A DNA stretch of 11,450 nt, taken from the IMG/VR virus record IMGVR_UViG_3300045988_163663. One strand, 5' to 3'. Under the pieces are notes generated by a model. That model saw nothing but the letters and a program-made list of their open reading frames with translations, ran no database searches and was not told where the DNA came from. This DNA comes from a virus. Made by a program: the position numbers and the translations under genes. Positions 8,962 through 10,838 of the stretch are shown here, in pieces (position 1 is the first letter of the stretch; every line of letters begins with the position of its first letter).

Positions 8962-9856
8962 CAATGACCCCCGCACCTATTTTTCTACGATAAACAAATC
9001 TGTCGCTTAATACAGTAATGTATTTTGAAAAACCTATCTAAACACGGAAAATCCTTATTAAAGGATAACCGAGTGCTAAATTTCTACTTGCCTATATTTG
9101 CTCGATTTGGGAGGTAAATATATGGAAATCTGGAAAGATATAAAAGATTATGAAGGTTATTATTAGATTAGTTCTTACGGTCAAGTGAAAAGCCTTCTCA
9201 CTAACAAAATTTTAGTAGGTGATACAAATAGTTTAGGATATCGAAGAGTTACTTTGTATGCTCCTATTAAAAAACGTTTTTTTATTCATCGGCTTGTTGC
9301 TTTACATTTTTGTAAAGGTTATCAAGAAAATTTAATTGTAAATCATAAAGACGGAGATAAAACCAATAATAAAGTTGAAAATTTAGAGTGGGTTACTCGC
9401 TCTGAAAATGATTTACATGCCTACAAAAATAATTTAAGAAAATCTTATCCTTGTCAATTTAAACATAAAATTATCGCTTATAATTTAACAACTGGTGAAA
9501 TTGTTAAAATTTATAACAATGCTGATAGTTGTGCTAAAGATTTAAAAGTTGCTCGTACCAATATCTATAATTGTTGTAATAAAAAGCAAAAAAGTTGTAG
9601 AGGATTTGGATTAAGATATGATAAATAAAAAATAATAGTGTAAGTAGAATAAAAGCTAAACGACTATCGAAAATATAATAAAAGAGAAAAACTTTTATGA
9701 ATAAATGAGTAGAGTAGCTTCAAGTGAAGCGAAAAGATAGGATTCCTATAAAGGTTAAAACAATATAGGAATATGATATAGTCTGAACTTATATAGTAAT
9801 ATATAGCAGTTTTTTATAAACGATATAAGATTAACGACCTTATATGAACATATTTG
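8962..9856 (+). mobile_element. Group I self-splicing intron in nrdD carrying an HNH homing endonuclease gene (boundaries within about 30 nt).
   Basis: R-like element AAACGACTATCG (about 9657-9668) and S-like element GATATAGTCTGAAC (9775-9788) form P7. P9-like hairpin with GNRA loop ATATA-GTAA-TATAT (9791-9804). P4/P5-like ACACGG / ATCCTT-ATTA-AAGGAT / CCGAGT at 9042-9076. Splicing ...GAC AT(8961)|G(9857) GGA TGC AGA creates the M-G-C-R-T motif (T4 PMGC290RS thiyl-radical Cys). The last exon nucleotide is U and the last intron nucleotide is G. Confidence 0.75.
9122..9628 (+). CDS. Intron-encoded NUMOD4 + HNH homing endonuclease, 168 aa with one in-frame TAG.
   Basis: GGGAGG SD 8 nt upstream of ATG 9122. 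MEIWKDIKDYEGYY-Q-ISSYGQVKS is the NUMOD4 signature (TAG at 9164). HNH motif HRLVALHFCKG...VNHKDGDKTNNKVENLEWVTRSEN. Ends at TAA 9626-9628. Confidence 0.85.
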
Positions 9857-10838
9857 GGGATGCAGAACAGCCAATGGATACGATATTAACGGTTTTGGTT
9901 AGCTAAAAGATGGCCGTGGTAATATTTGTCCAGTAACTATTATTCTTCCTACTTTAGCTATGATTGCTAAAAAAGAATGTGAAGAAGAAGGGCAAGAAGA
10001 AGATATTATTCCAGTATTTATGGCTTTATTAAATAGAAAAATTAATGAAGCTCGCATTCAATTAATGGAGCGTTTTGATTGGATTTGCTCTCAAGATCCT
10101 AAGTCTGCTAAATTTATGTATGAAAATAATTTAATGGCTGGCTATATTCCAGAAGAAGGAATTAGAAGTGCCCTTAAGCATGGCACATTAGCCATTGGAC
10201 AAATTGGTTTAGCAGAAACTCTTTAGATTCTTATTGGTAAAGACCATACAACTAAAGAAGGTATGGAATTAGCGAAACGAATTGAACAAATGTTTAAAGA
10301 TTACTGTGCAAAAGCAAAAGAACAATTTAAACTTAATTTTGGAGTTTATTACACTCCTGCTGAAAATTTATGCTATACGGCAATGACTAAATTCAAAGAG
10401 AAATATGGTATTATCCCTAATGTGTCTGACAAAGAATTCTTCACTAACAGTATTCATGTTCCCGTTTGGAAAAAAATGTCATCTTTTGATAAGATTGACA
10501 TTGAGAGCCAATTGACTGGTTATTCTTCTGCTGGATGTATCACATATGTAGAGTTAGATTCTACTGTAAAACACAATATTGATGCTCTTGAACAAATTGT
10601 TAATTATGCTATGGATAAGGATATTCCTTATTTCGCAGTAAATGTGCCTAATGATACTTGTCTTGATTGTGGATATTGTGATGAATTTAATGATAAATGC
10701 CCAGAATGCGGTAGTACTAACATTCAACAATTACGTCGTGTAACTGGTTATTTAACTGGTAATTATAAGACTGCTTTTAATTATGGCAAACAAAAAGAAG
10801 TAGAAGCACGAGTAAAGCATACGGGGTAGATGGAATGA
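9857..10838 (+). CDS. nrdD: NrdD exon 2: catalytic Cys loop, C-terminal Zn-ribbon and glycyl-radical domain. TAGs at 9900 and 10224. The stop is TGA 10836-10838, or TAG 10827-10829 if that TAG terminates.
   Basis: (M)GCRTANGYDINGFG-Q-LKDGRGNICPVTIILPTLA is collinear with T4 MGCRSFL...DGRNNLGVVTLNLPRIA. YYTPAENLCYTAMTKFKEKYG is collinear with YSTPAENLCYRFCKLDTEKYG. Four-Cys ribbon CLDCGYC...CPECGS. Glycyl-radical region RRVTGYLTG...EARVKH is collinear with RRTCGYLG...HRVKHQ. Confidence 0.85.

What the first reader, a model, noticed from the sequence alone, without database searches (positions are those of the whole stretch)
9122..9628. Intron-encoded HNH endonuclease itself depends on TAG read-through
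The NUMOD4 motif is encoded by ATG 9122 ... TAT TAT TAG ATT AGT. The standard-code ORF would start at GTG 9185 and lack NUMOD4. The homing endonuclease is therefore only made full-length when TAG is decoded, tying intron mobility to the recoding state. It is preceded by a strong SD, GGGAGG.
Basis: seen in the sequence. Interest (0 to 1): 0.5.

Follow-up and report, generated by a model that had tools for sequence, protein, structure and literature searches.

The report
Intron homing endonuclease with amber-as-glutamine codon
A mobile intron in the ribonucleotide-reductase gene of a ~188-kb gut phage encodes a DNA-cutting enzyme whose gene contains one TAG "stop"; the phage reads TAG as glutamine throughout its genome, so this is an ordinary gene of a recoded phage, and the idea has been published for related phages.

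Summary
ATG 9122 to TAA 9628 is a 168-codon ORF with one in-frame TAG (9164-9166, codon 15), preceded by GGGAGG (9109-9114). With TAG read as Gln it is a full-length I-HmuI-type HNH homing endonuclease. The GTG-9185 product loses the NUMOD4 match.

It lies in the P6a loop of a group I intron (8992-9856) in nrdD. Intronless alleles in ~95%-identical phages fix both junctions to the base.

TAG is a glutamine codon, not a stop:
- Position 15 is Gln in 115 of 120 homologues and CAA in seven standard-code orthologous loci.
- TAG is kept in four other copies, two of which have diverged (dS 1.13) under purifying selection (dN/dS 0.085).
- GTG 9185 is GTA in the diverged copy.
- Within the lineage, TAG swaps mainly with CAA/CAG.

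The "tie to recoding" is only partly supported. The host gene nrdD also needs TAG decoded. The endonuclease's TAG share (1 of 5 Gln codons) matches the regional average (23%). A second recoded lineage has its TAG at codon 29 instead. Borges et al. already described a stop-codon-gated intron endonuclease in TGA-recoded Agate phages.

No suppressor tRNA was found in the 20.5 kb I could reach. This is a new member of a known kind, of modest interest.

The parts
7709..8991 (+). nrdD exon 1 (ATP-cone + NRDD N-terminal part). In-frame TAGs at 7802-7804, 7925-7927 and 8891-8893. Ends ...TCT ACG AT.
   Evidence: Pfam ATP-cone E=3.9e-23 and NRDD E=5.7e-59. The junction is fixed by intronless relatives.
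8992..9856 (+). Group I intron, 865 nt, with IA-type P7.1/P7.2 hairpins. The 5' splice site follows U8991 (U.G pair in P1), and the intron ends at G9856.
   Evidence: Precise presence/absence polymorphism: L082 joins 8991 to 9857 directly. Consensus fold and covariation. Sub-threshold Rfam Intron_gpI hit at 9744-9804, 27.5 bits, E=1e-4.
8988..9005 (+). P1: exon/intron CGAUA (8988-8992) pairs with the internal guide UGUCG (9001-9005). U8991.G9002 is the splice-site wobble pair.
   Evidence: There is a compensatory change with the exon wobble base: CGAU/GUCG in the window, CCAU/GUGG in TR-TP2, and CAAU/GUUG in L004 (read by eye).
9033..9039 (+). P3 5' strand (CCUAUCU). It pairs with 9735-9741 (AGAUAGG).
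   Evidence: Helix 3: 4 of 7 pairs have changes on both sides.
9082..9093 (+). P6a 5' strand. It pairs with 9638-9649. The SD and the whole endonuclease ORF lie in the loop of this stem.
   Evidence: Helix 7: 12 of 12 pairs have compensatory changes.
9109..9114 (+). Shine-Dalgarno sequence GGGAGG, 7 nt before the ATG.
   Evidence: Seen in the sequence. GGAGGTAAA is conserved upstream of the start codon in all orthologues.
9122..9628 (+). I-HmuI-like HNH homing endonuclease gene, 168 codons: NUMOD4 (residues 2-46), HNH_3 (55-97), and a C-terminal NUMOD1/I-HmuI-like region.
   Evidence: Pfam. PDB 1U3E I-HmuI, E=1.6e-27, aligned 4-166. dN/dS 0.085 against L094. The HNH consensus residues are all present.
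9164..9166 (+). In-frame TAG, codon 15 of the endonuclease, read as Gln.
   Evidence: Position 15 is Gln in 115/120 homologues. It is CAA in L001-L004, L096-L098 and L099, and TAG in L092-L095. I-HmuI has Q at the aligned site.
9185..9187 (+). GTG, the start of the standard-code ORF. Not a plausible start codon.
   Evidence: No SD upstream. It is GTA in L094, GTT in L001/L002 and within-frame Val elsewhere.
9662..9667 (+). P7 5' strand GACUAU. It pairs with AUAGUC at 9778-9783 (a pseudoknot with P3).
   Evidence: Identified by eye. 5 of 6 pairs are invariant in six introns, 97% paired. The 3' strand lies within the Rfam match.
9678..9730 (+). P7.1 (9678-9684/9692-9698) and P7.2 (9717-9721/9726-9730) hairpins between P7 and P3'.
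   Evidence: Helices 9 and 10: 5/7 and 4/5 pairs are compensatory.
9742..9772 (+). P8 hairpin.
   Evidence: Rfam alignment. Helix 11: 5/9 pairs are compensatory.
9857..10838 (+). nrdD exon 2, starting G GGA TGC AGA (..M-G-C-R..). In-frame TAGs at 9900-9902, 10224-10226 and 10827-10829. Stop TGA at 10836-10838.
   Evidence: Pfam NRDD E=2.1e-77 and Gly_radical. The TAGs at residues 443 and 551 align to invariant Q in three standard-code relatives.

Best explanation
The window comes from a ~188-kb human-gut phage that uses TAG as a glutamine codon (genetic code 15). Its anaerobic ribonucleotide reductase gene nrdD is interrupted by a self-splicing group I intron at 8992-9856.

The P6a loop of the intron carries its own SD and a 168-codon gene for an I-HmuI-type HNH homing endonuclease. 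Codon 15 of that gene is TAG. It stands for the conserved Gln of the NUMOD4 DNA-binding motif (GYYQ[IV]S).

Inferred mechanism:
1. In an infected cell where UAG is decoded as Gln, the ribosome makes the full-length enzyme. The decoder is presumably a phage suppressor tRNA(CUA) charged by host GlnRS.
2. The enzyme cuts or nicks intronless nrdD alleles of co-infecting relatives at ...TCTACAAT|GGGATGCAGA....
3. Repair copies the intron in.
4. Where UAG is a stop, only a 14-residue peptide is made, and the intron can still splice but cannot home.

The TAG is best read as passive adaptation of a long-resident selfish gene to its host's code (CAA to CAG to TAG, favoured by AT pressure), not as a dedicated switch.

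Shown here: the ORF, its domains, the intron and its boundaries, TAG=Gln, purifying selection across the TAG, and the intron presence/absence polymorphism.

Inferred, not shown: the suppressor tRNA, endonuclease activity and target, splicing, and timing of expression.
For: ORF and domains:
- Pfam NUMOD4 (residues 2-46, E=5.1e-14) and HNH_3.
- Full-length match to I-HmuI, PDB 1U3E, E=1.6e-27.
- Catalytic and consensus HNH residues are present.

TAG = Gln at this codon:
- Gln in 115/120 homologues.
- CAA in orthologous nrdD introns of standard-code phages, including cultured Thomasclavelia phage TR-TP2.

Not a pseudogene:
- TAG-15 is retained in L092, L093 and L094/L095.
- Window vs L094: dS 1.13, dN 0.096, dN/dS 0.085.
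- Codons 1-21 show 7 synonymous changes against 1 non-synonymous.
- GTG 9185 is GTA in L094.

Genome-wide recoding:
- 68 in-frame TAGs in 19/26 genes of L084.
- nrdD TAGs align to invariant Gln.
- Among ~95%-identical relatives, TAG is replaced by CAA/CAG in 59 of 85 differing cases, and never by TAA or TGA.

Intron:
- The junction 8991|9857 is exact in intronless relatives.
- 97.5% of cells paired; 48/88 pairs compensatory against 7-10 in controls.
- Partial Rfam Intron_gpI hit.

Passive rather than special:
- HEG TAG share is 1/5, against a regional 68/298.
- An independently recoded relative, L099, has CAA at codon 15 and TAG at codon 29.
- TAG has only one synonymous single-base exit (to CAG), so its retention over dS ~1 needs no selection (inference).
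Against: - No tRNA of any kind was found in the window or in 10 loci of about 20 kb around it. The rest of the 188-kb genome could not be reached, so the decoding agent is unverified.
- There are no expression, splicing or cleavage data.
- The gene calls used for TAG statistics were made with TAG as sense, so 'no gene ends in TAG' is circular and is not used as evidence.
- Rfam's group I model scores below its gathering threshold (27.5 against 50 bits).
- The C-terminal I-HmuI_NUMOD-like and NUMOD1 matches are below their Pfam cutoffs.
Confidence: 0.85

Rival explanations
1. The TAG is a selected timing and containment gate. The endonuclease is deliberately kept untranslatable until the phage has switched the cell's code (suppressor tRNA expressed), so that homing or competitor cleavage happens only late. 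It is also kept inert if the intron moves into a standard-code phage.
For: - Borges et al. propose exactly this for a group I intron endonuclease that preferentially uses TGA in TGA-recoded Agate phages.
- TAG-15 is early in the ORF and is conserved across copies with saturated synonymous divergence.
- In relative L089 the TAG-free DnaE gene (0 TAG in 56 Gln codons) carries an inserted NUMOD3 endonuclease gene with 3 TAGs in 6 Gln codons.
- Five of the six other HEG copies counted in this phage group contain TAGs.
Against: - The host gene nrdD itself needs 5-6 TAGs decoded, so there is no differential gate here.
- The HEG's TAG share (20%) equals the regional mean (23%).
- The L088 GIY-YIG intron endonuclease has 0 TAG.
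- The L099 orthologue has its TAG at a different codon.
- Retention of TAG is expected under neutrality, because only one synonymous exit exists (inference).
Confidence: 0.12
2. The TAG is a real stop. The endonuclease gene is decaying, or is expressed only as an N-terminally truncated 147-aa protein from GTG 9185 that lacks part of the NUMOD4 domain.
For: - Under the standard code the longest ORF is 9185-9628.
- No suppressor tRNA was found nearby.
- Degenerate homing endonuclease genes are common in fixed introns (general knowledge).
Against: - dN/dS is 0.085 over the whole gene, including 7 synonymous against 1 non-synonymous change in codons 1-21.
- GTG 9185 is not conserved (GTA in L094) and has no SD. 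The conserved SD sits before ATG 9122.
- There are no other stops or frameshifts in five TAG-15-bearing copies, two of them diverged.
- Essential genes of the same genome carry in-frame TAGs at invariant Gln positions.
- The intron is polymorphic in the population, which suggests recent mobility.
Confidence: 0.02
3. The TAG is decoded by site-specific programmed read-through (context- or structure-stimulated), not by genome-wide reassignment.
For: TAG is followed by A, which is a leaky context in some systems (general knowledge).
Against: - There are 68 in-frame TAGs in varied contexts in 19 of 26 neighbouring genes.
- RNA 9085-9200 folds no better than shuffles, z = -1.27.
- The TAG position differs between lineages: codon 15 against codon 29.
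Confidence: 0.01

Closest known systems
[quoted passage not shown]
   Same: Same architecture and length (168 against 174 aa): N-terminal NUMOD4 region, HNH_3 catalytic motif, C-terminal NUMOD-like DNA-binding region. Aligned over residues 4-166, E=1.6e-27, with the motif WKDIKGYEGHYQVS matching WKDIKDYEGYY(TAG)IS. Both are encoded in phage group I introns.
   Different: The host gene differs (nrdD, not DNA polymerase). This gene has Asn rather than Asp before the catalytic His (NH against DH). It contains a TAG codon that must be read as Gln. Nicking activity and target were not tested here.
Orthologous nrdD intron plus HNH endonuclease of Thomasclavelia phages TR-TP1/TR-TP2 (PQ571309/PQ571310) and IMG/VR contigs L002-L004
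   Same: Same insertion site (..S-T-M|G-C-R..), same intron fold, same 168-codon endonuclease. 76% nucleotide identity over window 8630-10821.
   Different: Those phages use the standard code: there are no in-frame stops in their nrdD, and codon 15 is CAA. They are ~90-100 kb phages with a different replication module.
Group I intron endonuclease of TGA-recoded Agate phages (Borges et al., bioRxiv 10.1101/2021.08.26.457843; Nat Microbiol 2022)
   Same: [quoted passage not shown]
   Different: There the codon is TGA=Trp, the endonuclease family is significantly enriched in the recoded codon (p=1.3e-3), and the host gene is an early, standard-code gene. Here the codon is TAG=Gln, there is no enrichment (1 of 5), and the host gene is itself recoded.
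T4 nrdD (sunY) group IA2 intron with I-TevII
   Same: A group I intron in a phage nrdD gene with IA-type P7.1/P7.2 extensions, carrying a homing endonuclease (intron class from the record's note and general knowledge).
   Different: The insertion site differs: T4's lies between residues ~268 and ~303 of this NrdD, and this one follows residue 427. The endonuclease family differs (GIY-YIG I-TevII against HNH). In T4 the ORF lies near the 3' end rather than in P6a (general knowledge). T4 uses the standard code.
Inteins and introns with TAG codons in crAss-like phages (Yutin et al. 2021, PMC7886860)
   Same: Mobile self-splicing elements living in TAG-recoded phages. The intein parts of a TerL ORF contain multiple TAG codons.
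   Different: Those are Bacteroidota phages, and the elements are inteins or introns in structural genes. No orthologue pair across codes was analysed there.

Membership tests
I-HmuI-like HNH homing endonucleases (NUMOD4 + HNH_3) | N-terminal NUMOD4 motif | tested here: met
   PF07463, residues 2-46, full profile 1-49, 52.7 bits against a cutoff of 23.4, with TAG read as Q.
I-HmuI-like HNH homing endonucleases (NUMOD4 + HNH_3) | HNH catalytic motif with conserved His/Asn residues | tested here: met
   PF13392, residues 55-97, 45.1 bits against a cutoff of 24.8. H56, N74-H75, N82-N83, N87, N96 and H99 match residues that are invariant or nearly invariant in 120 homologues.
I-HmuI-like HNH homing endonucleases (NUMOD4 + HNH_3) | C-terminal NUMOD/helix-turn-helix DNA-binding module | tested here: inconclusive
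   I-HmuI_NUMOD-like scores 22.5 bits (cutoff 27) and NUMOD1 16.8 bits (cutoff 22.8). The phmmer alignment to 1U3E does run through to residue 166.
I-HmuI-like HNH homing endonucleases (NUMOD4 + HNH_3) | Site-specific nicking or cleavage of the intronless allele | not testable with these tools
   Needs a biochemical assay. The only indirect support is the intron presence/absence polymorphism.
Group I self-splicing intron | Precise insertion whose removal restores an intact conserved reading frame | tested here: met
   Intronless relatives join 8991 to 9857, giving ..YFSTMGCRT...
Group I self-splicing intron | Conserved core helices P1-P9 supported by covariation, including the P3/P7 pseudoknot | tested here: met
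   13 helices, 97.5% of cells paired, 48/88 pairs compensatory, covariation score 0.563 against at most 0.113 in slid controls. P7 itself is invariant, so it is consistent with the structure but not tested by covariation.
Group I self-splicing intron | U.G pair at the 5' splice site and a terminal G at the 3' end | tested here: met
   U8991 pairs with G9002 in all six sequences (UG:6). The intron ends in G9856.
Group I self-splicing intron | Match to the Rfam RF00028 covariance model at gathering score | tested here: not met
   No hit at the gathering threshold. There is only a partial hit covering P8 to P9, 27.5 bits against 50, E=1e-4. This is expected for an AT-rich intron with a 0.5-kb ORF in P6a and extra P7.1/P7.2 hairpins, and the comparative evidence outweighs it.
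Group I self-splicing intron | Self-splicing activity | not testable with these tools
   Needs in vitro transcription and splicing, or RT-PCR.
TAG-to-Gln (code 15) recoded phages | In-frame TAGs inside conserved genes, aligned to Gln in homologues | tested here: met
   NrdD residues 443 and 551 align to invariant Q. HEG codon 15 aligns to Q in 115/120 homologues. TAG to CAA/CAG accounts for 59/85 and 68/92 of polymorphic sites.
TAG-to-Gln (code 15) recoded phages | Phage-encoded suppressor tRNA(CUA), or RF2 or GlnRS | tested here: inconclusive
   No tRNA in the window or in 10 flanking loci of about 20 kb. Borges et al. detect such tRNAs in only 40% of TAG-recoded genomes.
Stop-codon-gated intron endonuclease (Borges et al., Agate phages) | The endonuclease preferentially uses the recoded stop codon relative to the rest of the genome | tested here: not met
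   1 TAG in 5 Gln codons, against 68/298 in the region. The sample is a single gene, so the test is weak.
Stop-codon-gated intron endonuclease (Borges et al., Agate phages) | The host gene is readable in the standard code while the endonuclease is not | tested here: not met
   The nrdD exons carry 5 internal TAGs plus one near the end. The condition is met for the DnaE insertion of relative L089, which is outside this window.

The most novel reading that the evidence does not exclude
Genetic-code divergence acts as a one-way valve and timing lock for homing endonucleases. The same nrdD intron/endonuclease family circulates in both standard-code and TAG-recoded Firmicutes phages. Once a copy acquires a TAG it is active only in cells where a recoded phage has switched the code. 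It is therefore expressed late, and perhaps used against co-infecting intronless relatives, as shown for the PhiPA3 intron endonuclease (PMC11620839). It is dead on arrival in standard-code phages. TAGs in endonuclease genes sitting inside TAG-free early genes (the DnaE insertion of L089) would be the selected form of this lock.
Probability: 0.15. Interest if true: 0.6.

Novelty: new member of a known kind. Interest (0 to 1): 0.3.

Why it matters
The case is a clean, fully anchored example. An orthologous intron and endonuclease are present in cultured standard-code phages and in a TAG-recoded phage. It shows that selfish homing genes take on their host phage's alternative code, and that their spread should then be limited to hosts with the same code.

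It matters in practice for annotation. Standard-code gene callers truncate this endonuclease and split nrdD into six pieces.

It adds a TAG/Gln example to the one published TGA/Trp case of a recoded intron endonuclease. It also provides a population with intronless, HNH-intron and GIY-YIG-intron alleles in which code-dependent homing could be tested.

It does not reveal a new mechanism.

Tried and rejected
- Rfam at gathering thresholds found nothing in the window or in four related loci. Only the permissive search gave a partial group I hit.
- ARAGORN found no tRNA in the window or in 10 loci of 16-20 kb from the same phage.
- I tried to fish the suppressor tRNA out of IMG/VR with an anticodon-loop/T-loop pattern.
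- Two IMG/VR contigs of this phage were located (L102, L103), but the stored stretches do not reach the intron.
- An exact 29-mer around the TAG is absent from IMG/VR.
I worked around this through the homologue search.
- The promoter and terminator scan of 8900-9900 gave no more sites than shuffles: 9 against 6.4±2.5, and 0 terminators.
- The fold of 9085-9200 shows no significant structure around or after the TAG, z = -1.27. I therefore rejected a read-through-stimulating element and SD sequestration.
- The idea that this is the T4 nrdD intron site was rejected. T4's intron lies more than 120 codons upstream. My first T4 coordinates were wrong, and one script failed on a file name.
- Megablast found no close genome in GenBank phages other than the nrdD/intron segment of TR-TP1 and TR-TP2. 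DnaE is only ~38% identical to Enterococcus and Bacillus phage DnaE, so no annotated relative could be scanned for a suppressor tRNA.
- 'No gene ends in TAG' was rejected as evidence, because the gene calls were made with TAG as sense.
Full report
**1. The observation**

- ATG is at 9122.
- Codons 13-17 are TAT TAT TAG ATT AGT, with TAG at 9164-9166.
- The stop TAA is at 9626-9628.
- GGGAGG is at 9109-9114, 7 nt before the ATG.

The standard-code ORF list shows only 9185..9628, 147 aa, with a GTG start.

With TAG translated as Q, Pfam finds NUMOD4 over residues 2-46. The match covers the whole 49-position profile, at E=5.1e-14 and 52.7 bits against a cutoff of 23.4. HNH_3 covers residues 55-97 at E=7.6e-12. 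The GTG-9185 product keeps HNH_3 but has no NUMOD4 match.

The protein aligns over residues 4-166 with the solved HNH homing endonuclease I-HmuI (1U3E, E=1.6e-27). I-HmuI has ...GYEGHYQVS... where this gene has ...DYEGYY(TAG)IS....

**2. Where the window comes from**

The window is 100% identical to positions 2954-14403 of locus L084. That locus is taken from a 188,486-bp ENA gut-metagenome scaffold. Contigs of 182-188 kb from other samples carry the same guanylate kinase protein and are about 93-97% identical in DNA, so this is a recurrent phage genome of about 188 kb.

The gene order in the window is: lysozyme-like gene, SF1 helicase, DnaE-type polymerase, guanylate kinase, NrdD, NrdG. DnaE is only ~38% identical to that of Enterococcus and Bacillus phages. 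The nrdD/intron segment is 76% identical to Thomasclavelia phages TR-TP1 and TR-TP2. A Bacillota host is therefore likely, by inference.

**3. The phage reads TAG as glutamine**

- Treating TAG as sense fuses the fragmented ORFs into full-length helicase and NrdD proteins with continuous Pfam matches.
- In the 20.5-kb locus, 19 of 26 called genes contain 68 in-frame TAGs, against 202 CAA and 28 CAG.
- Two NrdD TAGs (residues 443 and 551) align with Gln that is invariant in three standard-code relatives. Two more align with Gln in one relative.
- Among ~95%-identical relatives, a TAG in L084 is matched by TAG 388 times. When the codon differs, it is CAA or CAG in 59 of 85 cases. In the reverse direction the figure is 68 of 92. 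TAA and TGA never appear.
- The gene calls were made with TAG as sense, so I do not use 'no gene ends in TAG' as evidence.
- No tRNA gene lies in the window or in ten ~20-kb loci of the lineage. The agent that decodes UAG is therefore inferred from the literature on such phages, not shown here.

**4. The ORF is intron-encoded**

Seven relatives have an uninterrupted nrdD in which window position 8991 abuts 9857. The sequence is ...TCTACAAT|GGGATGCAGA..., giving ..YFSTMGCRT... The intron is therefore 8992-9856, 865 nt.

I built six ORF-deleted orthologous introns: the window, TR-TP2, two IMG/VR contigs and two metagenome contigs. They fold into P1, P2, P3, P4, P5, P6/P6a, P7.1, P7.2, P8, P9 and a 3' hairpin. 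I added P7 by eye (GACUAU 9662-9667 with AUAGUC 9778-9783).
- 97.5% of cells are paired.
- 48 of 88 pairs have changes on both sides, against 7-10 when partners are slid.
- The covariation score is 0.563, against at most 0.113 in controls.
- The 5' splice site is the U.G pair of P1 in all six.
- The neighbouring P1 pair co-varies with the exon's wobble base: CGAU/GUCG, CCAU/GUGG, and CAAU/GUUG in L004.
- The intron ends in G.

Rfam's group I model matches only P8 to P9, below threshold (27.5 bits, E=1e-4).

The SD and the ORF sit in the loop of the 12-bp P6a stem, and all 12 of its pairs co-vary. The extra P7.1 and P7.2 hairpins are the IA-type feature seen in T4 introns (my knowledge). T4's own nrdD intron lies at a different site, more than 120 codons upstream.

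**5. Is the TAG a sense codon in this particular gene?**

Yes.
- Position 15 is Gln in 115 of 120 homologues, Glu in 4 and Lys in 1.
- In the orthologous introns of standard-code phages (L001-L004, L096-L098) the codon is CAA.
- The TAG is present in the two 99%-identical copies (L092, L093) and in L094 and L095, which are 85% identical in protein.
- Window against L094: dS = 1.13, dN = 0.096, dN/dS = 0.085.
- In codons 1-21, the part that a GTG-9185 start would leave untranslated, there are 7 synonymous and 1 non-synonymous differences.
- GTG 9185 itself is GTA in L094.
- The conserved GGAGG lies before ATG 9122 in every orthologue.
- All HNH consensus residues are intact.

A pseudogene or a truncated product is therefore excluded for practical purposes.

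**6. Is there a special tie between mobility and recoding?**

The literal statement holds: no UAG decoding, no full-length enzyme. Four points argue against a dedicated device.
- **The host gene is also recoded.** nrdD needs five internal TAGs decoded, and has a sixth three codons before its TGA stop.
- **There is no TAG enrichment.** The endonuclease has 1 TAG in 5 Gln codons. The regional share is 68/298, or 23%.
- **The TAG site differs between lineages.** A second TAG-recoded relative with the same DnaE-Gmk-NrdD synteny (L099) has CAA at codon 15 and TAG at codon 29. TAGs therefore arise independently at different Gln codons.
- **Retention needs no selection.** TAG has one synonymous single-step exit (to CAG), so keeping it over dS~1 does not require selection (inference).

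CAG is rarer than TAG here (28 against 68). This fits C-to-T pressure in a 29% GC genome.

No RNA structure or promoter signal stands out around the TAG.

**7. What is known**

Borges et al. (bioRxiv 2021) report that in TGA-recoded Agate phages a group I intron endonuclease inserted in an early gene preferentially uses TGA. They propose that the in-frame stops delay endonuclease production until late in infection.

Yutin et al. [quoted passage not shown]

The concept is therefore published. This case is a TAG/Gln example in a different, probably Bacillota-infecting phage. It also offers orthologues on both sides of the code boundary.

**8. Mechanism, with shown and inferred steps**

Shown:
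- gene, domains, intron, boundaries and fold;
- TAG=Gln;
- purifying selection;
- population polymorphism (intronless, HNH-intron, GIY-YIG-intron).

Inferred:
- a suppressor tRNA(CUA) charged with Gln decodes UAG;
- the enzyme nicks or cuts the intronless allele, and repair copies the intron;
- in a standard-code cell only a 14-aa peptide is made, so a TAG-bearing copy that transfers to a standard-code phage would splice but not home.

**9. Verdict**

This is a new member of a known kind, with interest about 0.3.

The most novel reading still open is that the code works as a timing lock and a one-way barrier for homing endonucleases. The best hint is the TAG-rich endonuclease inside the TAG-free DnaE of relative L089. 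I give this reading about 15%.

Noticed in passing
window 2851-6798 (DnaE); L089 4649-9751: DnaE has 0 TAG among 58 Gln codons. The rest of the region averages 28% TAG, which gives a binomial P of about 4e-9 (my arithmetic). Gmk, NrdG, dUTPase and the lysozyme-like gene are also TAG-free. In relative L089, DnaE is split by a ~1.17-kb intron-like insertion whose NUMOD3 endonuclease gene has 3 TAGs in 6 Gln codons. That is the 'standard-code host gene, recoded endonuclease' arrangement Borges et al. describe.
   Followed up: partly
L083 11951-12798 and L088 11951-12793 (equivalent to window 8991/9857 +4 nt): Two close relatives carry a different, unalignable ~0.85-kb group-I-like intron with a GIY-YIG endonuclease. 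It is inserted 4 nt downstream of the HNH-intron site (ATGGGT|...|TGCAGA). The population therefore has three nrdD alleles: intronless (7 loci), HNH intron, and GIY-YIG intron. The L083 GIY-YIG gene has 2 TAGs and the L088 one has none.
   Followed up: partly
L003 4272-5246; L099 4235-5613: Other nrdD insertions occur in relatives. L003 (a standard-code IMG/VR phage) has an extra ~970-nt insertion between NrdD residues 221 and 222. L099 (TAG-recoded) has an insertion with a LAGLIDADG-like ORF containing 4 TAGs after ...NTLQSRSG. nrdD appears to be a hotspot for introns in these phages.
   Followed up: no
window 6788-7051: A small called gene of 87 codons overlaps the end of DnaE by 11 nt and contains 4 TAGs against 1 CAA. 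It has no Pfam match. It is conserved with all its TAGs in relatives (28 of 28 aligned TAGs retained).
   Followed up: no
window 10827-10838: The last in-frame TAG of nrdD lies three codons before the TGA stop (HTG-TAG-ATG-GAA-TGA). A standard-code reading would end the protein there, and relatives have Lys at this position. The next gene starts in an ATGA overlap at 10835.
   Followed up: partly
L083/L088/L091 about 5184-5774 (would fall at window ~2560-2805): A free-standing GIY-YIG endonuclease gene (189 aa, 1 TAG) sits immediately upstream of DnaE in three relatives. It is absent from the window, which has a 250-nt very AT-rich spacer there (GC about 0.23).
   Followed up: no
window 829-1956: The SF1 (RecD/Pif1-like) helicase reading frame is open from 829 with TAG as sense and carries 4 in-frame TAGs. 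The public gene call starts only at window 1105. The true start, and the AAA_30 N-terminal part, may be mis-annotated.
   Followed up: no
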